DNA of 32,000 bases from an uncultured archaeon. Its GTDB lineage: Archaea > Iainarchaeota > Iainarchaeia > Iainarchaeales > JAAZKV01. The DNA is taken from positions 300,001 to 332,000 of the forward strand of contig CAZKBG010000001.1 in assembly GCA_964551375.1 (NCBI GenBank), written 5' to 3'. Made by a program: the position numbers and the translations under genes. Every line of letters begins with the position of its first letter. Position 1 is the stretch's first letter. Positions 3,478 through 24,766 of this stretch are shown here, piece after piece. A model generated the notes under the pieces. The model was not told where the DNA came from. It worked only from the letters and a program-made list of their open reading frames with translations, and made no database searches.

Positions 3478-4890
3478 TTAGTTTTGAGCCTGTTTAGCTA
3501 AAATAGTGCCGTCTTTATTGTCAATTAGTTCAATTCCCTGTTTCTTCAATAAATTCCTTATTTCATCCGCTTTCTTCCAGTTTTTTGACTTCTTTGCATT
3601 TATTCTTTCTTCAATCAACTTCTTTTGCTCGTCAGTAAGCTCAAAATACTTTTCAGTAAAATCAAAAACGCCAAGAACAGAATCAACTTTTTTCAAAAAC
3701 TCAATCGCTTCATTTGCAGAATCCTTATCAATTTCCCCCAAGTCAATCAGCTTGTTAATCTGCTTTGCAAAATCAAAAACATGCATCATTGCCTGAGGAA
3801 CGTTTAAGTCGTTGTCCATGGAGTTAGTAAATCCTTCGGTTGCTTTATCAACAAATATTTTAATCGAAGAGCCTTTGATATACCCATTAATTGTCCGAAG
3901 CCTTTCAACAAGATTGTTTATCCCAAAAAGAGTTTTCTCAGCATCATGAACTGACTCAATTGTAAAATTTAGCGGCTGCCTATACTGGGAGTAAAGCAAA
4001 ACATACCTGATTGCTTTTGGGCTCAACCCCATTTTCAATAAATCCCTTAATGTATAAAAATTTCCAAGACTCTTGGACATTTTCATTCCATTAACCATTA
4101 AGTGGGCGCAGTGAAGCCAATAATTCACAAACTTTTTCCCGCTCGCAGCTTCGCTTTGGGCAATCTCATTCTCATGATGAGGAAATTTATTGTCAATTCC
4201 GCCGCAGTGAATATCAAAAGTATCTCCAAGGTTTTTAGCGCTCATCGCAGAGCATTCAATATGCCAGCCCGGCCTTCCTTTTCCTAAATCAGTTTCCCAA
4301 TAAGCAGGGCCGTCAGCCTCATCCCATGCTTTCCAAAGCGCAAAATCCCCCACGCCCTCTTTTTCATACTCATCCTGCTTTACTCTCGCCCCTGATTTTA
4401 GTTTCTTAGGATCAAGTCCTGCAAGTTTTCCATAATTCTTGAATTTTTTAATTGAATAATAAATGCAGCCGTCTTCGCCCTTATACGCAATTCCATGCTT
4501 CATTAATTTATGAATCAACTCAACCATTTCAGGAATATACTGCGTTGCTTCAGGATAGACATCCGCAGGAATAATATTTAATGCCTGCAAATCTTCCACA
4601 AAAGCTTTCTTGAAAGGAGCAGTGTACTCATAAATTGAAACTTTTTTCTCGTTTGCGTGCTTGATTATTTTATCCTCAACATCAGTGAAATTCATCACAT
4701 GCTTTACCTTAAATCCCTTGAAAATCAAGTAGCGCTTCAATAAATCTTCCCAAGTATAAGCTCGCATATTCCCGATATGCGCATAATTGTAAATAGTTGG
4801 CCCGCAAGTGTAAAGCCCCACATGCCCCGCTTTTATCGGCTTAAACTCTTCCAGCTTGTTTCCAAAAGAATTTAGGAACTTTAAACCCAT
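3478..4890 (-). CDS. cysS: cysteine--tRNA ligase
   Basis: Class I HIGH-type motif (YNYAHIGNMRAY), KMSKS motif (KMSKSLGN) and the WHIECS zinc/cysteine-binding motif. I prefer the ATG at 4890 (MGLKFLNS...) over the upstream GTG at 4899. Confidence 0.95.
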   Translation of the reverse strand: MGLKFLNSFGNKLEEFKPIKAGHVGLYTCGPTIYNYAHIGNMRAYTWEDLLKRYLIFKGFKVKHVMNFTDVEDKIIKHANEKKVSIYEYTAPFKKAFVEDLQALNIIPADVYPEATQYIPEMVELIHKLMKHGIAYKGEDGCIYYSIKKFKNYGKLAGLDPKKLKSGARVKQDEYEKEGVGDFALWKAWDEADGPAYWETDLGKGRPGWHIECSAMSAKNLGDTFDIHCGGIDNKFPHHENEIAQSEAASGKKFVNYWLHCAHLMVNGMKMSKSLGNFYTLRDLLKMGLSPKAIRYVLLYSQYRQPLNFTIESVHDAEKTLFGINNLVERLRTINGYIKGSSIKIFVDKATEGFTNSMDNDLNVPQAMMHVFDFAKQINKLIDLGEIDKDSANEAIEFLKKVDSVLGVFDFTEKYFELTDEQKKLIEERINAKKSKNWKKADEIRNLLKKQGIELIDNKDGTILAKQAQN

Positions 4891-5099
4891 ACAAACCACA
4901 AATATTAGTTTTAGAAATCTTTATCAGTCTATTCCTTGGCTAAATTTGATTTTAAACCCTTAAAAATAAGCCCCCAGCATCTTTTTTCAAAATGCCGTCC
5001 AGGGCCCGCAACTGATTCCATTGTCCTTTCAATTACATTCAATAAGCCAAGCACAATATAATATTTCTTTGAAGATTCATTTGAAATTGTTTCATTCAG

Positions 5100-5576: not shown

Positions 5577-5641
5577 TATTTGAAATATTTAAAGTTGCCC
5601 TAAACTGAACAAAAATAGATTTTTGATTCAATTTGGCATTG

Positions 5642-5863
5642 CTAGTCAGAATCATAGTCTTCAGAAGCAGAATCACTGCCCTCTTCTTCCTCTTCATCTT
5701 CCATTTCAAGCTCTTTGCTTTCAATAAGCTTTAGATTTCCTTTCTTGTCAGCAACGATGGTGTATTCAAGATTGCATTCAGGGCAAGCCACTGCGTCCCC
5801 TTCTTCCATATCCACGACTTCAACGTCAAAACGCGCCTTACATTCAGAGCAAAGTTTCTTCAT
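5642..5863 (-). CDS. LysW-like zinc-ribbon protein with poly-acidic C-terminal tail (candidate carrier or substrate protein)
   Basis: 73 aa. It has CxxC-17-CxxC (CSEC...CPEC) with the GDAVACPECNLEYTIV strand pattern seen in LysW/ArgW. The tail is ELEMEDEEEEEGSDSASEDYDSD. A TATA box lies upstream. Confidence 0.7.
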   Translation of the reverse strand: MKKLCSECKARFDVEVVDMEEGDAVACPECNLEYTIVADKKGNLKLIESKELEMEDEEEEEGSDSASEDYDSD

Positions 5864-5895
5864 CCATCATCACAATTATTTTCCCCTCATTTTCC

Positions 5896-5903
5896 TTTAT
5901 AAA
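5896..5903 (-). promoter_or_regulatory. TATA-box-like element for the LysW-like gene
   Basis: TTTATAAA lies 33-40 nt upstream of the ATG at 5863. It is preceded on the minus strand by the AATCGCTGATTT motif at 5919-5930. Confidence 0.45.
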
Positions 5904-5978
5904 TCTTACTTGTCTTTCAAATCAGCGATTAAGCAAGTTATATGCGGTTTATTAGGGGCTCGCTTAAAAAAAAGCGAA

Positions 5979-6542
5979 TTAAACAATTAGTTTTAGAAGA
6001 ATTCCTGAAATAAATGAGATAATCAAAGCATTCAGCACAAGCACTATAATCCAGTTAATAAATAACGAAGCGCCTTTTTTTGAAGTAACAACTTTAAGCA
6101 TCTTAAATGAAGCAACAAGCCATCCGATTAATAGAATAACAAAAATTACTCCAAAAATTATCAATACCGCTAAGAACGCCAAGTTAGGAAGAAAAGGCAT
6201 TATAAGAATTAAAATAAGCATCAGAACTGAAGAAAGCAAATTAATCTGCCAAAGCTTTGAAGTCACCGAAGCGCTCTCGGAGAATGAAACATATTCAGAA
6301 CCCTTTTTCTTTCTTGTATGAGCAACGCTGAAAAACCAAACTAAAACAGCTAAAACAAGCCACTGAACAAAATTAAGAACCAAGAAAAATGCGGCAATAA
6401 TAGGCTCCTTTGTAAGAAGATACGATGAAACTGCAAAAAAGATTGCAGCAATTATGGCAACTAAAAAAGCAGCTCCTCCGCTTGGATGAGCAAGTGTTTC
6501 TTCAAACGCCTTTGTGGGGCTAAAAACCACGCTTAGAACCAT
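5979..6542 (-). CDS. multi-pass membrane protein (Yip1-domain-like)
   Basis: 187 aa with about 5 TM helices. The N-terminal FSPTKAFEE...GGAAFLV pattern resembles Yip1-type membrane proteins. The family call is tentative. Confidence 0.6.
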   Translation of the reverse strand: MVLSVVFSPTKAFEETLAHPSGGAAFLVAIIAAIFFAVSSYLLTKEPIIAAFFLVLNFVQWLVLAVLVWFFSVAHTRKKKGSEYVSFSESASVTSKLWQINLLSSVLMLILILIMPFLPNLAFLAVLIIFGVIFVILLIGWLVASFKMLKVVTSKKGASLFINWIIVLVLNALIISFISGILLKLIV

Positions 6543-6685
6543 GAAACCACTAACTATTAACTAAATTCAAATATATAAAGTTACTCTCTTAAATCCAAAA
6601 ACAATAACTTACAGTAACTTCGACTTTTTTTTATAACATCCCCGCACTTGCTTCTTGCCTGCTTTAATCCACCAGCCGCCCATTG

Positions 6686-7204
6686 CTAAAGTTCTTTTTT
6701 CATTAAAACATTATCCACTGATTTTTTGGAAACTATTGAAGCATTTTTCAAAAGCCCGTACTTTTCAAACCCAAGCTTTTTGTAAAGCTTAATTGCGGCA
6801 AGATTATTCTTATCCACTTCAAGAATCAAAAGGCTCCTGTTTTTTGAAAGCTCATTTATTACAAACTTCATTAATTTTGTTCCGATTCCTTTTCTTCTCA
6901 TTGAACTGTTTACAACAAGGGACAAAATCTGCGCCCTGTGCTTGTGAATGCTTTTGCCAAGCACCACCCTGACGTGAGCAACAACTTTCCCGTTAGAAAT
7001 TGCAACATATCTATGGTCTTTTTTCCGCCTTGTAGCTGCAAGTTTTTTTTGAACAGAAGCGCGCTTCCAGTGAGGAAACAGAGAATGAACTTCATTAATC
7101 AAGTTGAGCGAAGAATCCTTCAGCTCAATAAACTCAAGAGTGGGCATTTCTTGCCGCCTCATCTTTTTCATCTTCAATTCTAAATCTTTTTCTCTCGCTT
7201 GCAT
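6686..7204 (-). CDS. GNAT family N-acetyltransferase (RimI-like)
   Basis: Acetyl-CoA-binding motif RRKGIGTKLM and the C-terminal A-IKLYKKLGF-x-G motif. Alternative ATG starts at 7162 and 7147 would reduce the 71-nt overlap with the upstream gene. Confidence 0.85.
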   Translation of the reverse strand: MQAREKDLELKMKKMRRQEMPTLEFIELKDSSLNLINEVHSLFPHWKRASVQKKLAATRRKKDHRYVAISNGKVVAHVRVVLGKSIHKHRAQILSLVVNSSMRRKGIGTKLMKFVINELSKNRSLLILEVDKNNLAAIKLYKKLGFEKYGLLKNASIVSKKSVDNVLMKKEL

Positions 7205-7583
7205 CCTTTGAATCCTTCACCTTATTAGTCATGTGAGTTCTTGAAACATCAATAATAAAATTATTATGAATAATATCTCTTCCGATGATTATTGGATAAG
7301 GCAAACCTTCCCTGTCTTCAATATTAACTCCGGTCTTTATTTTTTTTCCTTTAACTAGAATAGTTGCCTGAGCAATTGCCCTTCTTGTATAACCTCTTGG
7401 CGAACTTGCGCTCTTTACTTTCACGCTTGAAAAAATAGGCCCGATTCCCGCTTTTGCGGCAAGCTTAACATCAAGACAAGTTCTTGTGGCGCCTGTATCA
7501 AACAAAGCCTTTTTGCTCACAAGCCCTTTTTTTCCTTTTATTCCAACAGTTTCAACAAGACCTATTATTCTTTTTTTAGCCAT
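7134..7583 (-). CDS. retropepsin-like aspartic peptidase of the RimK-associated family (often annotated 'ATP-dependent zinc protease')
   Basis: 149 aa. It has the D-T-G-A catalytic motif (ALFDTGATRTCLD) and the C-terminal YPIIIGRDII...IIDV motif typical of this small single-domain family. Confidence 0.75.
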   Translation of the reverse strand: MAKKRIIGLVETVGIKGKKGLVSKKALFDTGATRTCLDVKLAAKAGIGPIFSSVKVKSASSPRGYTRRAIAQATILVKGKKIKTGVNIEDREGLPYPIIIGRDIIHNNFIIDVSRTHMTNKVKDSKDASERKRFRIEDEKDEAARNAHS

Positions 7584-7664: not shown

Positions 7665-7681
7665 AAAAAAATCGCTGATTT
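7665..7681 (+). promoter_or_regulatory. shared intergenic motif AAAAAAATCGCTGATTT (copy 1), in the divergent promoter region
   Basis: The 14-mer AAAAAAATCGCTGA recurs exactly at 12855-12868. The 12-mer AATCGCTGATTT recurs on the minus strand at 5919-5930. All three copies are intergenic. Confidence 0.4.
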
Positions 7682-7802: not shown

Positions 7803-8720
7803 ATGAACATTCTTATTATTGCAGAAAAAAGAACGCAAGTTAAGCCGTACATTGACTCGCTCACTGAAAGAGGACAGAGCCCAAAATACATAAGGGTTTC
7901 AAAAATAACTCTTGTAAGCAAGCAGAATGAAACTTTAATCAAATCTCTTGGAGAAGAAGTTGAAGCATATGACGCGGTGTTTATCCAGACACGCACCTCG
8001 CTTGCTCCATTCATTGAACCCCTTCTTGAAGAGCTTGAAGCGATTAATTCTTACACAAGCATAAAAAAAGGCTCATACTTTACTGGATGGAACGAGCCAT
8101 ACCAGTTTGTAACTCTTGCTCTTGCAAGCGTTCCCACTCCAAAGACAATAACAACCGCAAGCGTGAAAAATATTGAGCAACTTTCAAAGAAAATATCCTA
8201 CCCTATTTTGATTAACACTTACATTGGAAAGAAAAACCAGCAGACGCTTGTGATTAACAGCAACAGAGAGCTTAACGGATTTGTAAAAAGCATAAAAACA
8301 GAAATTGACGGATTCATGATAAGAGAATTTATTGAAGGAAATGTAATCTCAAGCATAATTGTCGGAAAAAAGACTTTTTCTGTAAAGCGAAACTATAACG
8401 GAGAAGAAGTCGAGCCGATAAAAAGCGGAAAATATTACACAATGACAGAAAGCGAAAATGAAACCGCAATAAAGGCAGCAGCCGCATGCGGGTACGACAT
8501 TGCAAGAGTGGACATGATAAAGGGAAAAGTAATCAAAGTAACTCCAATGTTTTCAATTGAAGATTTTAACAATATCTGCTCGGTAAAAATTGAAGACTCT
8601 GTTGCGGACTTTTTAATCGAGATGGCAAAAAAGCACGAAAACAAAGTGCTTGCGCCTTACGACTTTTTGGGGCTAAAGAAACTCTTAGGAAAAACAATAC
8701 TAAAGGGGCTGTTAAAATGA
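7803..8720 (+). CDS. RimK-like ATP-grasp paralog with degenerate active site (probable pseudoenzyme or adaptor)
   Basis: 305 aa, colinear with RimK. The ATP-binding VVK...GxGV loop is replaced (LINTYIGKKNQQ). The GDxRxN-HRGG motif is absent. The Mg-binding E-x-N is replaced (VIKVTPMF instead of xxEVNxxPG). Confidence 0.7.
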   Translation: MNILIIAEKRTQVKPYIDSLTERGQSPKYIRVSKITLVSKQNETLIKSLGEEVEAYDAVFIQTRTSLAPFIEPLLEELEAINSYTSIKKGSYFTGWNEPYQFVTLALASVPTPKTITTASVKNIEQLSKKISYPILINTYIGKKNQQTLVINSNRELNGFVKSIKTEIDGFMIREFIEGNVISSIIVGKKTFSVKRNYNGEEVEPIKSGKYYTMTESENETAIKAAAACGYDIARVDMIKGKVIKVTPMFSIEDFNNICSVKIEDSVADFLIEMAKKHENKVLAPYDFLGLKKLLGKTILKGLLK

Positions 8721-9622
8721 AGCACGGAAAAAGCCTCTTAATCATCGGCTCAAAGAATTTTAAAAAATCAACAGTGAATGCGCTTATTGAAGAAGCAAAG
8801 AACAGATTTGTTTCAGTATTGTTTGTTCCGATTGATAAAATACAAATCCAAACATCCACAGGAAAGGTCGGAATTTTTTACAAAGGGAAAAACCTTCTTG
8901 CGTTTGATGTGATTTATCCAAGAGTTTCATCAAAAGACTTTTTGCTTGGAGAAACCGTTCTAAAAACAATAGAAAGCTCAAACGCATACACCCCCGTAAC
9001 GCTTGACGCTTACCAAGTTACTAATCACAAATTTTACACTTCTCAAAAACTTTCAAACGCAAAAATCCCAGGACTTTTAAGCACTCTTTCAATTTCCCCA
9101 AAATACGCTGATTATGCGGTGAATGAAACAGGATATCCTTTTGTAATGAAAATACTATCAGGATTTGCTGGAAAAGGAGTTGTTCTTGTTAATTCAAAAG
9201 AGCAGATGGAAAGCATACTTGACGCAATGCACTTATTTGAAGAATTTATATGCACTCAAAAATTTATCAAAGGAAAAGACTATGACATCAGATGCTATGT
9301 TATCGGCGATTATGTGATTGCAGTTAAAAGAAAAGCAAAGAAAGGGGATTGGAGGGCAAATATTTCAAGAGGCGGCTCTGCTTCGCTCATAAACCCCACT
9401 CCTGAAATACTTGATGTCGCAAAAAAAGCAGCAAAGGTTCTGAAGATGGACATATGCGCAGTTGATTTAATGGAGCTAAAAAACAAATGGGTGGTAATTG
9501 AAGTAAACTTTATGCCGGGGCCGTTTAGAAAATTCCTTGGAACAATGGTGGTTCAGGAATGGATGAGACTTTTAGCCGACAAAGCCGAGAAAAAAACCCT
9601 TCTTTTAACCAGCGGGCCTTAG
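8717..9622 (+). CDS. rimK: RimK-family ATP-grasp alpha-L-glutamate (amino acid) ligase
   Basis: 301 aa with strong colinear similarity to E. coli RimK: DIRCYVIGD, KKGDWRANISRGGSA, CAVDLM...VVIEVNFMPG. Its start overlaps the upstream stop as ATGA (8717-8720). Confidence 0.9.
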   Translation: MKHGKSLLIIGSKNFKKSTVNALIEEAKNRFVSVLFVPIDKIQIQTSTGKVGIFYKGKNLLAFDVIYPRVSSKDFLLGETVLKTIESSNAYTPVTLDAYQVTNHKFYTSQKLSNAKIPGLLSTLSISPKYADYAVNETGYPFVMKILSGFAGKGVVLVNSKEQMESILDAMHLFEEFICTQKFIKGKDYDIRCYVIGDYVIAVKRKAKKGDWRANISRGGSASLINPTPEILDVAKKAAKVLKMDICAVDLMELKNKWVVIEVNFMPGPFRKFLGTMVVQEWMRLLADKAEKKTLLLTSGP

Positions 9623-9661: not shown

Positions 9662-10804
9662 ATGCTTAGGCAAAACAATCATTTTCACGATTACACAAGG
9701 CTTGACCAAAAAATCTGCCAGCTTGCAAGCGCAATTGAAACTAACGTTTTAGCATACATAAGCCCGCAAAATCTGGCTGGAGAGAAAAAAAAGTTCTTTG
9801 AAGCAATAAGCAAAAATGAACAATACAACCCGATATTTTCATACATTCCAAGAAACCCTGTTTTTTCATACTTTAACATGTCGCCCACATTCAGCACATA
9901 CAAAATGGAGCTAAAAGAACTCCTTATTGAAATCGGAGATGATTCGCTTGACCTTATTTTTGAAAAAAAGATAATTGACTTATTTGACCGAATGGAAATG
10001 CTAAGAAGCGTAGGTACTGAAAACTTTACCGGAAACGCTGAGTCATATTACGGAGGAGTGGATAATGCGACAGTCAGATTTGCAAAAGAATTTTTATCAA
10101 AAAACTTTGAGCCTGAAGAAAGGACTATCCCGTACGAAGAAGCAAAAAAGGTAATTGAAGAATTCCTTAAGAAAAAAAGATTAACTTATAAAATCAGCAA
10201 AAAAGAAACCGCTGGCTCCAAATTTTCGGTAAATATAAGAACAAAAGAAATTCTAATCAATCCAAACTATCCATTTTCAAAGAATTCGCTCAAAAGACTT
10301 ATTGCGCATGAAATTGAAGGGCATATTTACAGATACGAAAACGGATTAAGACAGCCTTACAAAATATTTTCAAGAGGATTAAGCCGAGAAACGCTCGAAA
10401 CAGAAGAAGGAATTGCAGTTTATGTTGAGCAGCAGCAGGGAATCAACATTGATTCGCAGTTAAAAGAATACTCTGGCAGAGTGCTTGCAATCTCAACTGC
10501 CATGAAACAATCATTCTATGAAACATTTCTTGAACTAAAAAAATACTTTTCTGATGAGGACGCATTTAACATCACAGTGAGGGCAAAAAGAGGGGTGTAT
10601 AGGCAGGATCAAGGAGGCGCTTTTACAAAAGACGCGCTTTACCTAAAAGGAATGCTATTAGTCCAGGACTTTTTAACCAAACAACCCATAAATGAACTTT
10701 ACTACGGCAGATACGCGACAAGCGATACTCCGCTTGTGCTTGACATTGACGGGCTAATAAAGCCAAAATACATGCCTGAATTTACAAAAGCAAAAAAACA
10801 ATAG
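9662..10804 (+). CDS. DUF1704/MATCAP-like metallocarboxypeptidase (QEGLA-motif family), paralog 1
   Basis: 380 aa. It has an HExxxH motif (AHEIEGHIYR) followed by ETEEGIAVY, the equivalent of the family QEGLA motif. Confidence 0.75.
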   Translation: MLRQNNHFHDYTRLDQKICQLASAIETNVLAYISPQNLAGEKKKFFEAISKNEQYNPIFSYIPRNPVFSYFNMSPTFSTYKMELKELLIEIGDDSLDLIFEKKIIDLFDRMEMLRSVGTENFTGNAESYYGGVDNATVRFAKEFLSKNFEPEERTIPYEEAKKVIEEFLKKKRLTYKISKKETAGSKFSVNIRTKEILINPNYPFSKNSLKRLIAHEIEGHIYRYENGLRQPYKIFSRGLSRETLETEEGIAVYVEQQQGINIDSQLKEYSGRVLAISTAMKQSFYETFLELKKYFSDEDAFNITVRAKRGVYRQDQGGAFTKDALYLKGMLLVQDFLTKQPINELYYGRYATSDTPLVLDIDGLIKPKYMPEFTKAKKQ

Positions 10805-10834
10805 AATTAAAACTCACTAAATTCAACTACTTTT

Positions 10835-11923
10835 ATGGAAAATCACATAAAAATTGCGGATAAACTAATTTACTCCTCCGCAGGAAAACTTGAACTTGTA
10901 TTTCTTGATTCAATAAATCCAATTAATTCAGCAAATGAAAAAGACGAATTTTATAAATCACAGGATAATTACCAGCAATACGAGCCATGCTTTAAGTACA
11001 CAAAAGAAATTGACTTTTCAGAACAAAAAAAGCAAATCAACAAGGCTATTTTAATGCTTAAAGGAACAGGACTTGCGGAAAAGATACTAAAGAAAAAGGC
11101 AATCCAGATGCTTTCTGAAATGGAGCTTGTTGAAAACAAAAATACAAAGAAATTCTCAAACTTTTCAAAAAAAACATACGGCAAGCCGAGCGCAAAAAAC
11201 ATAAAACTTGCAAATGAAATACTCTCAAAACCAGCAGGCGAAGAGAATTATGAGTTGACCGCCGGGGAATTAAAAAGCCAGCTTGAAGAAAGACTCTTTC
11301 GAGCCTCAATTGATTATCCTGTTATTCTTTCTGAACACATGAGCGCAAAAGCAAGCGTGCACCCAGCGGACGGAAGGATTAAACTGAATCAAAATGCAAA
11401 ATTTGGAAAAGGAGAAGCGGAAAGATTATTTGTTCATGAAGTTGAAACCCATATTTACCGACACTTAAACGGACTAATTCAGCCAATAAAGAGCCTTGCG
11501 CTTGGATTTGGAGGAGAATTTTTAGAAACAGAGGAAGGGCTTGCCGCATTTAATGAAACAAAAGCAAATGTTTCAAGCCCCCAGCAGAAAAGAATTTATG
11601 CAGGAAGACTAATTGCGGTTGATTATGCACTAAAGCACACCTTCTTTGAAACTTATGAATTCCTAAAAACATTTTTTGAGGATGAAGAAGCGTACACCAT
11701 AACTCAAAGAGTAAAAAGAGGGGTAATGTGCGCGGAAAAAGGCGCATTTACTAAAGACCACTGTTATTTTTCAGGATTAATCAAACTTGAAAAATACGCT
11801 GAGGATGAAAAACCAATAATTGACCTTTATTATGGAAAAGTTTCCACAAGAGAAGCAAAATTTGTAAAAAAGCTTTCTAATATTAAAGAACCCGCTTACT
11901 TGCCCAAGTGGCTTGACAAATAG
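10835..11923 (+). CDS. DUF1704/MATCAP-like metallocarboxypeptidase, paralog 2
   Basis: 362 aa. It has HExxxH (VHEVETHIYR) and ETEEGLAAF, and a C-terminal KRG...GAFTKD...Y..G block shared with paralog 1. Confidence 0.75.
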   Translation: MENHIKIADKLIYSSAGKLELVFLDSINPINSANEKDEFYKSQDNYQQYEPCFKYTKEIDFSEQKKQINKAILMLKGTGLAEKILKKKAIQMLSEMELVENKNTKKFSNFSKKTYGKPSAKNIKLANEILSKPAGEENYELTAGELKSQLEERLFRASIDYPVILSEHMSAKASVHPADGRIKLNQNAKFGKGEAERLFVHEVETHIYRHLNGLIQPIKSLALGFGGEFLETEEGLAAFNETKANVSSPQQKRIYAGRLIAVDYALKHTFFETYEFLKTFFEDEEAYTITQRVKRGVMCAEKGAFTKDHCYFSGLIKLEKYAEDEKPIIDLYYGKVSTREAKFVKKLSNIKEPAYLPKWLDK

Positions 11924-13110: not shown

Positions 13111-14532
13111 ATGTTTTCACAAACTGATAATCAAAAACAGCCGACTCCTGTTTCTCCAATTGCAGAAGTTAAAACAAACGGCGATGCTAAACAAACTGCG
13201 GAAGTAAAACAAAACGGCGAAATAAAACAAAAAGGAAAGACAACAGAAAACCCCAAGAAATTTTTATTCATTTCATTTGAAAGCCTTAGCGGAGATTTGG
13301 CTTGGCAGATTAAAAAAGAAGGACATGAAGTAAGAGCGTTTATTGAATCAGAAGCTGACAAAGATGTTTATGAAGGATTTTTGGAAAGAGTTGACGCTTG
13401 GGAAAAATTTGTTGACTGGGCGGATGTTATTATCTTTGATGATGTTGGATTCGGCGGGCAGGCAGAAGAACTGCGCGCAAAGGGAAAGCTTGTTGTAGGC
13501 GGAAGCAAATACACTGACAAGCTTGAAGAAGACAGAGAATTTGGGCAGAATGAAATGAAAAGAGTTGGAATGGATGTTCTCCCCCACTGGGATTTTAATG
13601 ATTTTGGAGAAGCAATTGAATTTATCAAAAATAATCCTGGAAGATATGTTTTCAAGCCTTCAGGAACAGTGGCATCAGACCAGAAAGGAATACTTTTCTT
13701 GGGACAGGAAGAAGACGGCAAGGATTTGCTTCAGATATTAGAACAAAACAGAAAACTTTGGGCAAGAAAAATAAAAAGATTCCAGCTGCAGAAAATGGCG
13801 GTGGGAGTGGAAGTGGCAGTAGGAGCATTCTTTAACGGAAAAGATTTTGTTCTGCCAATAAATGTTAATTTTGAGCACAAAAAACTTTTCCCGGGAGAAC
13901 TTGGGCCATATACAGGAGAGATGGGGACTTTGATGTTCTGGTCCCAGCCAAACGACATATTCCACCGAACTCTTGAAAAAATGAAAACAGATCTCGCAAA
14001 ATCAGGATATGTTGGATATGTTGATATTAACTGCATAGCAAATGCAAAAGGAATCTTTCCGCTTGAATTCACATGCCGGTTCGGCTACCCGACAATAAGC
14101 ATCCAGCTTGAAGGAATCACAAGCGAAATTGGAGAAACATTTTACAAAATGGCGAAGGGAGAAACTTTTGAAATCAAAACAAAAAAAGGATTCCAAATAG
14201 GAATATGCATAGTTGTTCCGCCATTCCCTTTCAAAGACCAGAAAGAATCTTACATTTACAAAGATCTTTCAATTTTATTCAAAAAACCAAATCTTGACGG
14301 AGTGCACCTTGGAGAAAATAAATTGGTAAATGATGTTTGGACAATTGCGGGAGAAACAGGATATGTTCTTGTAATAACAGGCTCTGGAAACACCGTTGAA
14401 GAAGCAAGAAAACAGGCATACTCAAGAGTTAAAAATATCATGATACAAAACATGTACTACCGAACTGATATTGGACTAAGATGGTTCTCTGATTCGGATA
14501 AACTGCATACAGAAGGATACCTTTTCAGCTGA
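13111..14532 (+). CDS. PurD-like ATP-grasp ligase (phosphoribosylamine--glycine ligase family, divergent)
   Basis: 473 aa. FEHKKLFPGELGPYTGEMGT aligns to the PurD DGDxGPNTGGMG loop. PLEFTCRFGYP aligns to EFNxRFGDPE with N replaced by T. The N-terminus carries a K/Q-rich extension with a 2x36-bp repeat. Confidence 0.7.
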   Translation: MFSQTDNQKQPTPVSPIAEVKTNGDAKQTAEVKQNGEIKQKGKTTENPKKFLFISFESLSGDLAWQIKKEGHEVRAFIESEADKDVYEGFLERVDAWEKFVDWADVIIFDDVGFGGQAEELRAKGKLVVGGSKYTDKLEEDREFGQNEMKRVGMDVLPHWDFNDFGEAIEFIKNNPGRYVFKPSGTVASDQKGILFLGQEEDGKDLLQILEQNRKLWARKIKRFQLQKMAVGVEVAVGAFFNGKDFVLPINVNFEHKKLFPGELGPYTGEMGTLMFWSQPNDIFHRTLEKMKTDLAKSGYVGYVDINCIANAKGIFPLEFTCRFGYPTISIQLEGITSEIGETFYKMAKGETFEIKTKKGFQIGICIVVPPFPFKDQKESYIYKDLSILFKKPNLDGVHLGENKLVNDVWTIAGETGYVLVITGSGNTVEEARKQAYSRVKNIMIQNMYYRTDIGLRWFSDSDKLHTEGYLFS

Positions 14533-14563
14533 AAAATGCTTTAGCGCAATTTGATGTGAAAAA

Positions 14564-14977
14564 ATGACCGCAAAGAAAAAACTAATTCAAAATTTATTGA
14601 ACACTTACTGCAGATTGCGGAAATCAAAATCACACGGAGTAGGGGTATTTGCCATACGCGAGATTCCTAAAGGAACTAATCCATTCAAATTTGAAAAACC
14701 TCAAAGCTGGGTCAAAATAAGCGCAGAAGAAGTAAAAAATGCCCGCGCAGAAGTAAAAGAAATGATTGACGCATTTTATGTAATCAAAAAAGATGGAAGT
14801 TTTTGGGCAAATTCAGGCGGGTTAGCCTCAATGGGAATGTCATTTTACATGAACACTTCAAAAAAGCCGAATGTAAAAACAACTGATGACGGGGCGAATT
14901 TCAAAACAACAAGACTGATAAAAAAAGGCGAAGAGCTTTTAACAGATTACTCGGATTATGACTGGAAATATGAATAG
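14564..14977 (+). CDS. SET-domain-like protein with degenerate NHS motif
   Basis: 137 aa. It has GVGVFAIREIPKGT (GxG SAM pocket) and KKGEELLTDYSDY (ELxxDY). The NHSCxPN position reads MNTSKKPN. Confidence 0.6.
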   Translation: MTAKKKLIQNLLNTYCRLRKSKSHGVGVFAIREIPKGTNPFKFEKPQSWVKISAEEVKNARAEVKEMIDAFYVIKKDGSFWANSGGLASMGMSFYMNTSKKPNVKTTDDGANFKTTRLIKKGEELLTDYSDYDWKYE

Positions 14978-15030
14978 CACTAATATAAAAATACATTAAA
15001 TTAATTTTATTTAGAATAACTGGTGAGCAA

Positions 15031-15513
15031 ATGGGGAAATATCCTTCAAAAGTAGTATTGAATCATTACGGCAAAGCGCTTATTGCAAAAAAAACAATTC
15101 CTGCAGGGACTGTTGTCGAGAAATTTGAAGGAAAAGTAATTTCGTATAATGAAGTTCCACTCGATATGATATGCTATGCAATTTATGTTGGGGAAAACGG
15201 CGCTGATGAATGGGTTGTTTCCAAAACAAACGCAATTTATGCAAACCACTCCTGCGAGCCGAACTGCTCAATTGACGATGAGCTCAACATATTTACAACA
15301 AAAGAAGTGAAAAAAGGCGAGGAATTAAGTTACAGCTACAACCGCCTTGAAGAAGACGAAAATGAAAAAGATTATATTTGGGACAAGAGATGGAACTTTG
15401 AATGCAAATGCGGTTCGCCAGTTTGCCAGAAAAATGTTAACGGATATGTGAAGAAAAAGAAAGAAGTAGAATATGCAAAAATAACTACCCGCCTAAATGA
15501 CCGCTTGCATTAA
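15031..15513 (+). CDS. SET-domain protein lysine methyltransferase with Cys-rich post-SET motif
   Basis: 160 aa. It has the canonical ANHSCEPNC motif, KKGEELSYSY and a post-SET-like CKCGSPVCQ. A GGTGA ribosome-binding site lies 4 nt upstream of the ATG. Confidence 0.85.
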   Translation: MGKYPSKVVLNHYGKALIAKKTIPAGTVVEKFEGKVISYNEVPLDMICYAIYVGENGADEWVVSKTNAIYANHSCEPNCSIDDELNIFTTKEVKKGEELSYSYNRLEEDENEKDYIWDKRWNFECKCGSPVCQKNVNGYVKKKKEVEYAKITTRLNDRLH

Positions 15514-22880: not shown

Positions 22881-24662
22881 TTACTGCTTCTTCTCTTCCT
22901 CTTTAGGCAAAACAACTTCAATAAATAATTCCTTTAATTGCTTTGAAGTAGCTTCGCTTGGAGAATCATCCATTAATGAAGCAGCGGCTTTATTTTTCGG
23001 GAAAGCAATTACATCTCTAATTGAATCTCCGCCAGCCAAGAGCATTACCATTCTATCAAGCCCAAATGCAAGTCCGCCGTGAGGAGGAGCGCCGTATCTA
23101 AATGCTTCAAGGAAGAATCCGAATTTCTTCTTAGCTTCCGCATCAGTGAGCCCAATCATTCGAAAAACTCTTGCCTGAACTTCAGGGTCATAAATTCTAA
23201 CACTTCCCCCGCCAAGCTCAATTCCGTTAAATACTAAATCATACGCAAGCGCTTTTACTCTCAGAGGCTCTTTTTCCATAAACTCCAAATGCTCTCTTCT
23301 TGGAGAAGTGAAAGGATGATGAACAAAAGTCACTTTGTTATCAGTTTCATCCCACTCAAACATAGGAAAGTCTTTAACCCAAGTAAGACTCATTGCGCCC
23401 GGCTTGATTAATCCAAGCTTCTTAGCCAAATTCTTTCTTAAATTTCCAAGAGAATCATTCACAATCTTTGCTTTATCAGCAACTATTACTACTAAATCAT
23501 TCTCTTTCACATTTAACTTCGCCTTGAGCTGATTGAGTAAATCAGCGCTGAAGAACTTAGCAATGCTTCCTTCAAAAGTTCCGTTTTGATACTTAAGATA
23601 AGCAAGCCCTTTCGCTCTGTAAATTTTCACAAAGTTTTCCATCTCGCCAAGATCCTTTCTTGACATTTGTGCCTGTCCTTCAATATTAATTGCCTTAATT
23701 ATCCCCTTATTTTCAACAACTGATTTAAACGCGTTGAATTCTCCCTTTGACATTATTTCAGTCACATCATTTAATTCAAGCCCGAATCTCAAATCAGGAG
23801 TATCAACACCAAATCTTGCAATTGCTTCATCATACTGCATTCTTGGAATAGGAAGCTTTACTTCAATTCCCGCCATTTGTTTAAACACTCTTGCAATCAA
23901 GCGCTCATTCATTGTCATTACATCTTCTTCATCAACAAAACTCATCTCTACATCGATTTGAGTAAATTCAGGCTGCCTGTCCGCTCTCAAATCCTCATCT
24001 CTAAAGCACTTTGCAATCTGGAAATATCTATCCATTCCGCCAATCATCAAAAGCTGCTTAAATAACTGAGGACTCTGAGGAAGAGCGTAAAAGTTTCCGG
24101 GATTGACTCTGCTTGGAACTAAATAATCTCTAGCCCCTTCAGGAGTGCTCTTTGCAAGAATTGGAGTTTCAATTTCAAGGAAATTGTTCTCATCAAAAAA
24201 ATCTCTAACACACTTAACTAACTTATGCCTAAAAATAATGCTTTTTTGAAGATTTGGATTTCGAAGAGCAAGGTATCGGTACTTTAACATTAAATCTTCA
24301 TTTGAAATTGTCCGCTCTGTCAAATCAATCGGAAGAGGCGCCGCTTTTGTCAAAACTTTAACACTATTCACATCAACTTCAATTTCGCCAGTAACTAAAT
24401 CAGCTTTTGCAGTTCCAGCAGGCCTTTTTTTCACAGTCCCTTCAATCTGAAGAACAAATTCTTTTCTAATGCTCTTTGCTGTCTCGCTAATTTCAGCGCT
24501 TTTTTTGTGATCAAGAACAACTTGAGTAAGCCCGTAGCGGTCTCTAAGGTCAATAAAAGTAACATTGCCGTGATCTCTCACAGTATCTGCCCAGCCCTGA
24601 AGAGTAACAGTTTTACCTTCCAATTTGCCGTTAAGTTCGCCACAAGTGTGTGTTCGCATCAT
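22881..24662 (-). CDS. aspS: aspartate--tRNA ligase, bacterial type (with GAD insertion domain)
   Basis: Motifs QSPQLFKQLLM, FRDEDLRADRQPEFTQID, GGGSVRIYD and PPHGGLAFGLDR. It is about 593 aa from the ATG at 24662 (MMRTHTCGEL). The 26-codon N-terminal extension in the ORF track is probably not translated. Confidence 0.95.
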   Translation of the reverse strand: MMRTHTCGELNGKLEGKTVTLQGWADTVRDHGNVTFIDLRDRYGLTQVVLDHKKSAEISETAKSIRKEFVLQIEGTVKKRPAGTAKADLVTGEIEVDVNSVKVLTKAAPLPIDLTERTISNEDLMLKYRYLALRNPNLQKSIIFRHKLVKCVRDFFDENNFLEIETPILAKSTPEGARDYLVPSRVNPGNFYALPQSPQLFKQLLMIGGMDRYFQIAKCFRDEDLRADRQPEFTQIDVEMSFVDEEDVMTMNERLIARVFKQMAGIEVKLPIPRMQYDEAIARFGVDTPDLRFGLELNDVTEIMSKGEFNAFKSVVENKGIIKAINIEGQAQMSRKDLGEMENFVKIYRAKGLAYLKYQNGTFEGSIAKFFSADLLNQLKAKLNVKENDLVVIVADKAKIVNDSLGNLRKNLAKKLGLIKPGAMSLTWVKDFPMFEWDETDNKVTFVHHPFTSPRREHLEFMEKEPLRVKALAYDLVFNGIELGGGSVRIYDPEVQARVFRMIGLTDAEAKKKFGFFLEAFRYGAPPHGGLAFGLDRMVMLLAGGDSIRDVIAFPKNKAAASLMDDSPSEATSKQLKELFIEVVLPKEEEKKQ

Positions 24663-24766
24663 CAAAAACCCCTCACTATCAATAAGAACACGAAAAAAAG
24701 AGTTTAAAAACCAAGTCAGTAGGGCGAAACAGGAAATCATTTATACCTTCAATGCGCTAATATTTT

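What the first reader, a model, noticed from the sequence alone, without database searches (positions are those of the whole stretch)
5642..5863. LysW-like zinc-ribbon protein with an extended poly-acidic tail but no aminoadipate-pathway genes
The N-terminal CxxC-17-CxxC ribbon and following strand resemble the amino-group carrier proteins LysW/ArgW. The tail is much longer (about 25 residues, mostly Glu/Asp/Ser) and ends in ...EDYDSD rather than the EDWGE-type terminus I recall for LysW. None of the partner genes lysY/Z/J/K is visible in the window, and a DAP-pathway dapA is present elsewhere. A role in lysine or arginine biosynthesis therefore seems unlikely. It is the most plausible acceptor for the neighbouring RimK-type ligases.
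Basis: partly seen in the sequence, partly recalled or inferred. Interest (0 to 1): 0.6.

Follow-up and report, generated by a model that had tools for sequence, protein, structure and literature searches.

The report
LysW-like zinc ribbon, acidic tail
A tiny, well-conserved protein of a small symbiotic-type (DPANN) archaeon has the fold of the lysine-pathway carrier LysW but no lysine pathway. It may be a target of the neighbouring tail-editing enzymes, but comparison of 215 related genomes shows that neither needs the other.

Summary
Window 5642-5863 (-) encodes a real 73-residue protein: a four-cysteine zinc ribbon (CxxC-18-CxxC, not 17) followed by a roughly 23-residue acidic tail ending EDYDSD.

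- **Fold and family:** its predicted fold matches LysW best. Its nearest sequence neighbours outside the family are LysW-like proteins. It fails every curated LysW threshold and lacks the terminal EDWGE/Glu.
- **Pathway:** the 93%-complete genome has no LysY/ArgC, LysJ or LysK homologues, so a lysine or arginine carrier role is excluded.
- **The neighbouring ligase:** it resembles bacterial RimK (121 bits) much more than LysX/ArgX (41-61 bits).
- **Link to RimK is mixed:**
  - The gene lies 2.5-6 kb from the RimK pair in nine GTDB families, and directly beside a MATCAP gene in one other family.
  - It has its own promoter and sits in a conserved housekeeping block (TyrRS, Yip1-like membrane protein, this gene, CysRS, NhaP).
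  - Eleven high-quality genomes keep it without any RimK. Fourteen keep RimK without it.

My reading: a new branch of the LysW-like superfamily with a RimK-independent core role. It is possibly (about 40%) a facultative substrate of the RimK/RimB/MATCAP enzymes. The scan has noted the same family in other Iainarchaeota genomes.

The parts
5642..5863 (-). Gene for the 73-aa LysW-like zinc-ribbon protein (stop codon 5642-5644)
   Evidence: ORF list and sequence; 60 homologues; alignment A1
5720..5863 (-). Residues 1-48: globular zinc-ribbon head, with Cys5/Cys8 and Cys27/Cys30, an EEGD turn and five beta strands
   Evidence: AlphaFold model with pLDDT 78-86 in this part. Best Foldseek matches are LysW chains 3wwn_B, 3wwl, 5eio_C and 3vpb_E: probability 1.0, target-normalised TM 0.61-0.65, rmsd 1.8-3.9 A
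5645..5719 (-). Residues 49-73: a short predicted helix within the conserved LIESKELEM block, then a disordered acidic tail. The tail has a run of five Glu, a Ser-rich stretch and the conserved ending EDYDSD
   Evidence: pLDDT 47-51 for residues 51-70. The tail ending is conserved in the genus. An aromatic residue set among acidic residues is kept across the wider family
5896..5903 (-). TTTATAAA box 33-40 nt upstream of the ATG: the gene's own promoter
   Evidence: Sequence. The TATA box and the downstream GAAAATG..GGAAAAT stretch are conserved in relatives L006 and L008
5960..5977 (-). Inverted repeat (TCGCTT / AAGCGA) around a run of eight T on the coding strand, at the end of the upstream membrane-protein gene. 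It looks like a terminator, so the zinc-ribbon gene is probably its own transcription unit
   Evidence: Read directly from the sequence; inference, not tested
5979..6542 (-). Context: Yip1-like multi-pass membrane protein, the most constant neighbour of the zinc-ribbon gene (same strand, directly upstream)
   Evidence: A homologous gene lies directly upstream in 20 of 23 loci from many families. Profile match E = 2e-9. Weak Yip1 hits in relatives
3478..4899 (-). Context: cysteinyl-tRNA synthetase, downstream on the same strand. This neighbour is kept even in genomes without RimK
   Evidence: tblastn and Pfam context
7134..7583 (-). Possible partner: RimB-like retropepsin-type aspartic peptidase
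   Evidence: PF05618 at 33.3 bits; RloA3 model E = 1.5e-7
7803..8720 (+). Possible partner: highly divergent RimK paralogue
   Evidence: PF08443 scores only 26.8 bits. No match to any PDB sequence. Catalytic loss was not examined here.
8717..9622 (+). Possible partner: canonical RimK-type alpha-L-glutamate ligase
   Evidence: TIGR00768 at 156 bits, above its cut-off. Bacterial RimK structures score 119-121 bits, ArgX 61, LysX 41-47
9662..11923 (+). Possible partners: two tandem MATCAP/DUF1704 metallocarboxypeptidase homologues (9662-10804 and 10835-11923)
   Evidence: PF08014 at 160 and 181 bits

Best explanation
**What it is (shown).** The gene encodes a member of an Iainarchaeota (Diapherotrites, DPANN) branch of the LysW-like zinc-ribbon superfamily. 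A four-Cys metal-binding head carries a flexible acidic C-terminal tail with an embedded aromatic residue.

**What it is not (shown).** It is not the LysW/ArgW carrier of lysine or arginine synthesis.

**How it probably works (inferred).** Like LysW, it works through its tail. The head gives a small docking platform, and the acidic/aromatic tail reaches into basic clefts of partner enzymes.

**Independence from RimK (shown).** The family's core role does not depend on a RimK ligase. Many relatives keep the protein and have no RimK-family gene at all.

**Possible modification in this genome (inferred).** In this genome and its family, the only encoded enzymes known to act on acidic tails lie 1.3-6 kb away. 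They are a RimK-type glutamate ligase with a divergent paralogue, a RimB-like endopeptidase and two MATCAP-type carboxypeptidases. I therefore take the tail to be a facultative substrate: lengthened with glutamate by RimK and shortened by RimB or MATCAP. This would parallel bacterial ribosomal protein bS6, which exists in all bacteria but is modified only where RimK is present.

The confidence given is for this last, acceptor step. The LysW-like identity and the exclusion of the lysine pathway are much firmer (about 0.85-0.9).
For: - **Fold:** the four best PDB fold matches, and six of the best eight, are LysW from Thermus, Sulfolobus and Thermococcus. All characterised LysW proteins are handled by RimK-family ATP-grasp ligases (established knowledge; e.g. 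entry 3vpb, ArgX with LysW).
- **Sequence neighbours:** ten of ten next-tier sequence neighbours that I sampled have LysW/ArgW as their best NCBIfam family.
- **Best candidate in the genome:** this is the best LysW-ribbon match in the genome.
- **Proximity:** it lies about 2-4 kb from the genome's only RimK locus. For a random gene the chance of lying within 6 kb is about 1% (12 kb of 1.09 Mb).
- **Linkage in other families:** the gene lies 2.5-6 kb from the RimK pair in nine GTDB families. These include f12, f15, f17 and f19, where CysRS is no longer adjacent, and families where the RimK pair is inverted.
- **Independent juxtaposition:** in G153 (family f17) a MATCAP gene lies directly downstream on the same strand, 56 bp away.
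- **Tail chemistry:** the tail is jointly the most acidic C-terminus in the genome. The protein is one of about five in the genome with a run of five Glu, and the only one with that run inside a C-terminal tail. Bacterial RimB needs 5-6 contiguous Glu (PMC11957791).
- **No bS6:** archaea have no bS6, the bacterial RimK target (established knowledge).
- **Pathway excluded:** no LysY, LysJ or LysK homologues.
Against: - **Weak co-occurrence:** among high-quality genomes the odds ratio is 1.8 (p = 0.31). At family level it is 1.9 (p = 0.46).
- **Protein without ligase:** eleven genomes of at least 90% completeness have the protein but no RimK-family hit.
- **Ligase without protein:** fourteen such genomes have RimK but not the protein. 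All five f11 genomes that I re-searched carry RimB, RimK and MATCAP but have no relative of the protein at E <= 1 and no small LysW-like ribbon.
- **Synteny alone could explain the proximity:** the gene sits in a housekeeping block (PurA, RimK pair, RimB, cytidylyltransferase, TyrRS, Yip1-like, this gene, CysRS, NhaP). Its steadiest neighbours are the membrane protein and CysRS, not RimK.
- **Separate transcription:** it has its own TATA box and is not in either RimK-locus operon.
- **Variable terminus:** the last residue is not conserved (D, S, E, K, A, Y). In this genome it is Asp, whereas known RimK targets end in Glu (PMC11957791, Table 1).
- **Tails do not track RimK:** tails do not differ between RimK-positive and RimK-negative genomes.
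- **Glu run not conserved:** the run of five Glu is not kept within the family.
- **RimK may need no protein acceptor:** bacterial RimK also makes free poly-glutamate (PMC11957791; PMC12239564).
- **Shared 12-mer not conserved:** a 12-mer shared by the two promoters is unique in this genome but absent from relatives.
Confidence: 0.42

Rival explanations
1. There is no functional link to the RimK locus. The protein is a housekeeping acidic-tailed zinc-ribbon adaptor, and its neighbourhood with RimK is inherited gene order. Its partners lie elsewhere. Candidates are the Yip1-like membrane protein always encoded just upstream, or translation-related proteins such as CysRS or TyrRS. Another possibility is that it buffers or chaperones basic proteins through its tail. 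The RimK module would then act on another protein or make free poly-glutamate.
For: - The membrane-protein and zinc-ribbon pair is kept in 20 of 23 loci, and the CysRS adjacency persists without RimK.
- In family f4 the gene has moved next to Kae1/TsaD and ribosomal or transcription genes, while CysRS stays beside RimK.
- There are 11 high-quality genomes with the protein but no RimK, and 14 with RimK but no protein.
- Family f11 has the full RimB/RimK/MATCAP set without it.
- Tails are the same with or without RimK.
- It has its own promoter.
- Bacterial RimK makes free poly-glutamate, stimulated by RimB (PMC11957791).
Against: - It leaves as coincidence that the genome's only LysW-fold protein lies beside its only RimK-family ligase (about a 1% chance).
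- It also leaves as coincidence that a MATCAP gene sits 56 bp downstream of it in G153.
- No specific alternative partner is shown. The membrane-protein gene stays in place in lineages that lost the zinc-ribbon gene.
Confidence: 0.4
2. It is a rubredoxin-like iron- or zinc-binding electron carrier analogous to eukaryotic Dph3/Kti11. It would serve radical-SAM enzymes of translation-factor or tRNA modification (Dph2, Elp3). No Dph3 counterpart is known in archaea.
For: - The family profile's best matches among PDB sequences are Kti11/Dph3 (E = 3e-4 over residues 8-44), well ahead of Thermus LysW (E = 2.2).
- Both share a C-x-L motif after the last cysteine and an acidic/aromatic C-terminal region.
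- The neighbours are translation-related genes.
- Dph2 is present in the genome and in 205 of 215 relatives.
Against: - Pfam's CSL zinc-finger model scores 15.3 bits against a cut-off of 29.2, no better than several unrelated zinc-ribbon models.
- The first knuckle is CxxC, not CxC.
- No Dph3 structure is among the 50 best fold matches, whereas LysW fills the top.
- Dph2 is near-universal in the phylum but this protein is found in only 96 of 215 genomes, and the two genes are not linked.
Confidence: 0.07
3. It is a true LysW/ArgW-type amino-group carrier. An amino acid would be ligated to the tail and processed while bound, in some biosynthetic pathway.
For: LysW fold. A RimK-family ligase lies nearby.
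Against: - There are no LysY/ArgC, LysJ or LysK homologues in a 93%-complete genome.
- The ligase is RimK-like, not LysX/ArgX-like.
- The terminal residue is variable and not Glu.
- All curated LysW thresholds are missed.
- Many family members live in genomes with no RimK-family ligase at all.
Confidence: 0.03

Closest known systems
LysW / ArgW amino-group carrier proteins (Thermus thermophilus, Sulfolobus tokodaii, Thermococcus kodakarensis; PDB 3wwl, 3wwn, 5eio, 3vpb, 5k2m)
   Same: - Size class.
- A four-Cys zinc-ribbon head with the same fold (target-normalised TM 0.61-0.65, 24-32% identity).
- An acidic turn between the two knuckles.
- A flexible acidic tail with an aromatic residue near the end.
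- A RimK-family ATP-grasp ligase encoded nearby.
   Different: - It scores below all curated thresholds.
- The tail is about twice as long and ends EDYDSD instead of EDWGE.
- The last residue is not conserved.
- The genome has no lysY/J/K.
- The nearby ligase is of the bacterial RimK type, not LysX/ArgX.
- Many relatives occur with no ligase at all.
Bacterial bS6 (RpsF) with the RimK-RimB (RimABK) system of E. coli and Pseudomonas
   Same: - An acidic C-terminal tail.
- Homologues of RimK and RimB are encoded nearby.
- The putative substrate is more widely distributed than the modifying enzymes, as for bS6.
   Different: - The fold is unrelated and it is not a ribosomal protein.
- The C-terminus is Asp here rather than Glu-Glu.
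- RimK systems exist in relatives that lack this protein, which has no parallel for bS6.
- Modification is not shown.
Tubulin tail cycle (TTL/TTLL ATP-grasp ligases with the MATCAP carboxypeptidase)
   Same: - An acidic tail containing Tyr.
- An ATP-grasp ligase and MATCAP-family peptidases are encoded together.
- One distant family member ends ...GEEY (L057).
   Different: - There is no relation to tubulin.
- The Tyr is not terminal in this genome.
- MATCAP and this protein co-occur in only 2 of the 7 families that have MATCAP.
- No biochemical evidence exists.
Dph3/Kti11 CSL zinc-finger proteins
   Same: - Size.
- Four Cys and an acidic character.
- Sequence motif likeness around the second knuckle.
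   Different: - It is below the Pfam threshold.
- The first knuckle differs.
- The fold search prefers LysW.
- There is no co-distribution with Dph2.
FYDLN_acid family (PF09538 / TIGR02300, bacterial)
   Same: A zinc ribbon plus a long acidic low-complexity tail. The score is marginally over the cut-off (24.1 against 23.9 bits).
   Different: The family's signature FYDLN motif (as I recall the family description) is absent. The match is largely compositional, and that family is bacterial and longer.

Membership tests
LysW/ArgW carrier proteins | Four-Cys zinc-ribbon head with the LysW fold | tested here: met
   AlphaFold model. The four best Foldseek PDB matches, and six of the best eight, are LysW chains; the top four have probability 1.0 and target-normalised TM 0.61-0.65
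LysW/ArgW carrier proteins | Score above curated model cut-offs (PF21344 27 bits; NF041070 75 bits; TIGR01206 53.2 bits) | tested here: not met
   19 bits and 24.5 bits; no TIGR01206 hit
LysW/ArgW carrier proteins | Conserved C-terminal EDWGE-type motif, with an invariant terminal Glu as the attachment site (definition from my own knowledge of the family) | tested here: not met
   The tail ends EDYDSD. The terminal residue varies (D, S, E, K, A, Y) across the family
LysW/ArgW carrier proteins | Genome encodes the partner enzymes LysX/ArgX, LysZ, LysY, LysJ and LysK | tested here: not met
   No ArgC/LysY, no Aminotran_3 and no M20 peptidase in the 93%-complete genome. Two amino-acid-kinase-fold genes exist, which I did not resolve. 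The ligase is RimK-like, not LysX-like
LysW/ArgW carrier proteins | Covalent amino-acid adduct on the C-terminal carboxylate in vivo | not testable with these tools
   Needs mass spectrometry
RimK substrates (bS6-like) | C-terminus ending in Glu (Glu-Glu in E. coli bS6) | tested here: not met
   The terminal residues are D-S-D. RpsF tails end ...DE and ...EE (PMC11957791)
RimK substrates (bS6-like) | Present wherever the RimK system is present | tested here: not met
   Fourteen high-quality genomes have RimK without the protein, including family f11
RimK substrates (bS6-like) | Glutamate residues added post-translationally | not testable with these tools
   Needs mass spectrometry or an in vitro assay
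Dph3/Kti11 (CSL zinc finger, PF05207) | Score above the Pfam cut-off (29.2 bits), with CxC ... CxxCSL knuckles | tested here: not met
   15.3 bits. The first knuckle is CxxC and the last is C-N-L. The profile against PDB sequences gives E = 3e-4, but no Dph3 is among the 50 best fold matches
FYDLN_acid (PF09538) | Score above the cut-off and the [KR]FYDLN motif | tested here: inconclusive
   24.1 bits against 23.9. The motif is not present (RFDVEV at the aligned place). The motif definition is from my memory of the family description

The most novel reading that the evidence does not exclude
LysW-fold mini-proteins may be the natural protein substrates of an archaeal write-and-erase system for acidic C-terminal tails. 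The writer would be the RimK ligase with its divergent paralogue. The erasers would be RimB-type endopeptidase, MATCAP-type carboxypeptidase and M29 aminopeptidase. This would be a prokaryotic forerunner of the tubulin tail code, and would show that the LysW carrier principle is used for regulation rather than biosynthesis.
Probability: 0.3. Interest if true: 0.8.

Novelty: new variant of a known kind. Interest (0 to 1): 0.45.

Why it matters
- **A second use for the LysW design.** LysW is the textbook case of a protein used as a handle for small-molecule biosynthesis. Here the same fold and tail design persist in organisms that have lost the pathway, so the design has another use.
- **If the tail is edited by the neighbouring enzymes.** This would be the first protein target proposed for archaeal RimK, since archaea lack bS6. 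It would also be the first substrate context for prokaryotic MATCAP homologues, and would link bacterial ribosome tailing to eukaryotic tubulin tail editing.
- **If it is not.** The result still warns against reading gene neighbourhood in small, highly syntenic DPANN genomes as functional linkage. The RimK module's target would remain open.

Tried and rejected
AATCGCTGATTT occurs only twice in the 1.09-Mb genome: upstream of this gene and in the RimB/RimK spacer. It is absent from the same places in four relatives and from the genus-level upstream regions. I reject it as evidence of conserved co-regulation.
2. **Dph3-like reading.** I followed it through the Dph2 distribution, Pfam scans of all family members and the fold search. 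It is not supported.
3. **Alternative RimK target: ribosomal protein eL43 with an acidic C-terminal extension**. The extensions vary and do not track RimK. Inconclusive.
4. **Run of five Glu as a RimB recognition site**. It is present here but not conserved in the family.
5. **A replacement acidic mini-protein in family f11 loci**. None was found.
6. **Context of a more distant LysW-like protein ending ...EEEEY**. There is no RimK or MATCAP there.
8. **Literature.** Searches for RimK with DUF1704 or MATCAP, and for LysW with an acidic tail, found nothing relevant.

Full report
**Observation**

Window 5642-5863 on the minus strand holds a 73-codon ORF.
- Cysteines lie at residues 5, 8, 27 and 30.
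- From residue 51 there are 23 residues with 14 Asp/Glu and 4 Ser, ending EDYDSD.

It is a real gene.
- One search found 60 homologues of 58-94% identity, named only as Diapherotrites or 'archaeon'.
- Alignment A1 shows the four Cys, G22, D23 and the LEYT and LIESKELEM blocks invariant or nearly so. The ending EDYDSD is kept in most of the genus.
- A profile of the family matches 96 of 215 genomes of the phylum.
- In a library of 1.84 billion representative proteins only 31 clusters match at E <= 1e-10, so the family is small and lineage-specific.

The genome is 1.09 Mb, 38% G+C and 93% complete.

**What it resembles**

By sequence alone it falls between zinc-ribbon families.
- PF09538 (FYDLN_acid) is marginally over its cut-off (24.1 against 23.9 bits).
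- PF21344 (LysW ribbon) scores 19 against 27, and NF041070 (LysW/ArgW) 24.5 against 75.
- Scanning all 36 members of A1 gives the same spread of sub-threshold generic hits.
- A profile search of PDB sequences puts Kti11/Dph3 first (E = 3e-4) and Thermus LysW far behind (E = 2.2).

Fold comparison settles this.
- The AlphaFold model has five strands and a short helix, with pLDDT of about 80 in the head and a disordered tail.
- Its four best PDB matches are LysW of Thermus and Sulfolobus (probability 1.0, target-normalised TM 0.61-0.65, rmsd 1.8-3.9 A, 24-32% identity). Thermococcus LysW follows at ranks 6 and 8.
- No Dph3 structure is among the first 50 matches.
- Independently, I sampled ten short proteins from the next tier of the representative search. 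All ten have LysW/ArgW as their best NCBIfam family.

The protein therefore belongs to the LysW-like superfamily but is not a LysW. The curated thresholds, the EDWGE/terminal-Glu motif and the pathway context are all not met.

**Pathway check**

- The genome has no ArgC/LysY, no class-III aminotransferase (LysJ) and no M20 peptidase (LysK). Each of these searches rang in all 14 control genomes.
- Two amino-acid-kinase-fold genes exist. I did not resolve them.
- A DHDPS/dapA-family gene is in the window.

**The neighbours**

The minus-strand arm, in order:
- a RimB-like retropepsin-type peptidase;
- a GNAT acetyltransferase;
- a Yip1-like membrane protein;
- the zinc-ribbon gene;
- a 158-aa ORF;
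- CysRS;
- an NhaP-type exchanger.

The plus-strand arm, in order:
- a highly divergent RimK paralogue;
- a canonical RimK;
- two MATCAP/DUF1704 homologues.

The canonical ligase scores 119-121 bits against bacterial RimK structures. It scores 61 against ArgX and 41-47 against LysX. By similarity it is an alpha-L-glutamate ligase of the RimK kind, not a LysW-loading enzyme.

The zinc-ribbon gene has its own TTTATAAA box 33-40 nt upstream. This box is conserved in relatives. A hairpin with a T-run lies at the end of the upstream gene. The gene is therefore probably monocistronic (inference).

**Is it tied to the RimK module? Evidence for**

- It is the best LysW-like ribbon in the genome.
- It lies beside the only RimK locus. 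For a random gene the chance of lying within 6 kb is about 1%.
- The gene and the RimK pair lie 2.5-6 kb apart in nine GTDB families.
  - In some of these CysRS is no longer adjacent.
  - In others the RimK pair is inverted.
- In G153 (family f17) a MATCAP gene lies 56 bp downstream of it on the same strand. This is a separate rearrangement.
- Its tail is jointly the most acidic C-terminus in the genome.
- Its tail carries one of only about five Glu5 runs in the genome. Bacterial RimB recognises 5-6 contiguous Glu (PMC11957791).

**Is it tied to the RimK module? Evidence against**

I clustered all neighbouring ORFs in 23 loci.
- This shows an inherited housekeeping block: PurA, RimK pair, RimB, a cytidylyltransferase, TyrRS, Yip1-like protein, zinc ribbon, CysRS, NhaP.
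- The steadiest neighbours are the membrane protein (20 of 23 loci) and CysRS.
- Both neighbours persist where RimK is absent.
- In family f4 the zinc-ribbon gene has moved elsewhere, next to Kae1/TsaD and ribosomal genes, while CysRS stays beside RimK.

Presence and absence are only loosely coupled.
- Among 58 high-quality genomes the split is 16 with both, 11 with the zinc ribbon only, 14 with RimK only and 17 with neither (odds ratio 1.8, p = 0.31).
- At family level the split is 13 / 5 / 7 / 5 (p = 0.46).
- Stronger-looking figures for all 215 genomes are not corrected for kinship or incompleteness.
- MATCAP occurs in seven families, and only two of them have the protein.
- I re-searched five f11 genomes of 92-96% completeness.
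  - All have RimB and the RimK pair; MATCAP was found in four of them and in 10 of 13 f11 genomes overall.
  - None has a relative at E <= 1.
  - None has a small LysW-like ribbon.
  - None of the three f11 RimK loci examined has an acidic mini-protein in the same position.

The tail itself gives no sign of adaptation to RimK.
- Tails look the same in RimK-positive and RimK-negative genomes.
- The terminal residue varies.
- The Glu5 run is not conserved.

The 12-mer shared by the two promoters is unique in this genome but not conserved in relatives.

Bacterial RimK also makes free poly-glutamate, stimulated by RimB (PMC11957791). The module therefore need not have a protein acceptor at all.

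**Reading**

*Shown:*
- It is a LysW-fold, acidic-tailed zinc-ribbon protein of an Iainarchaeota-specific family.
- It is not part of lysine or arginine synthesis.
- Its core role is independent of RimK-family ligases.

*Inferred:*
- It acts through its tail, as LysW does.
- In RimK- and MATCAP-bearing lineages such as this one it may be a facultative substrate of those enzymes.

*Odds:*

| Reading | Probability |
|---|---|
| Facultative substrate of RimK/RimB/MATCAP | about 0.4 |
| Shared ancestry of gene order only | about 0.4 |
| Dph3-like electron carrier | about 0.07 |
| True amino-group carrier | about 0.03 |

**Novelty and earlier notes**

- No paper in the searchable library links RimK with MATCAP/DUF1704, or describes this family.
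- The scan itself has noted the same family and module in several other Iainarchaeota genomes, with the same 'plausible but unproven' verdict.
- This report adds several things:
  - the phylum-wide presence/absence tables;
  - the synteny-block explanation;
  - family f11 as a counter-example;
  - the G153 juxtaposition;
  - the finding that the ligase is of the RimK type rather than the LysX type.

**Not done**

- Multimer structure prediction was not on offer.

Noticed in passing
own genome, G000:C1:514209-514694 (locus L004:1591-2076, minus strand); outside the window: The ribosomal protein eL43 (L37Ae) homologue is 161 aa, with a roughly 70-residue C-terminal extension ending in an acidic run (...EESAEENAEESE). 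Such extensions occur in several families of the phylum, with or without RimK, and are absent in the most reduced ones.
   Followed up: partly
window 5919-5930 (-) and 7670-7681 (+): The 12-mer AATCGCTGATTT occurs only at these two places in the 1.09-Mb genome: upstream of the zinc-ribbon gene and in the RimB/RimK divergent spacer. It is not present at the same places in relatives.
   Followed up: yes
locus L051 (G153:C21), 5588-6930: In another GTDB family a MATCAP/DUF1704 gene lies directly downstream of the zinc-ribbon gene, on the same strand with a 56-bp gap, in the place where CysRS sits elsewhere.
   Followed up: partly
window 22881-24740 (-): The aspartyl-tRNA synthetase carries a GAD insertion domain. 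As I recall, that is typical of the bacterial type and unexpected in an archaeon.
   Followed up: no
locus L044:231-1856 (+) and the matching genes in L047-L050: A 541-aa protein combining a mechanosensitive-channel beta domain with a C39-peptidase-like domain precedes the RimK pair in five families (f10, f13, f16, f19, f25).
   Followed up: no
proteins P0158, P0165, P0167 (representative library): More distant LysW-like mini-proteins end in ...EEDIY, ...EEEEY and ...EEEEEY, like the tail of alpha-tubulin. The one context I could read (L096) has PALP, DUF1611 and GNAT genes but no RimK or MATCAP.
   Followed up: partly
window 13111-15513 (+): A divergent PurD-like ATP-grasp gene is followed by two SET-domain genes, a few kb beyond the RimK locus.
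   Followed up: no
window 7134-7204: The 3' end of the RimB-like gene overlaps the longest reading of the GNAT gene by 71 nt. The true GNAT start is probably one of the internal ATGs.
   Followed up: no
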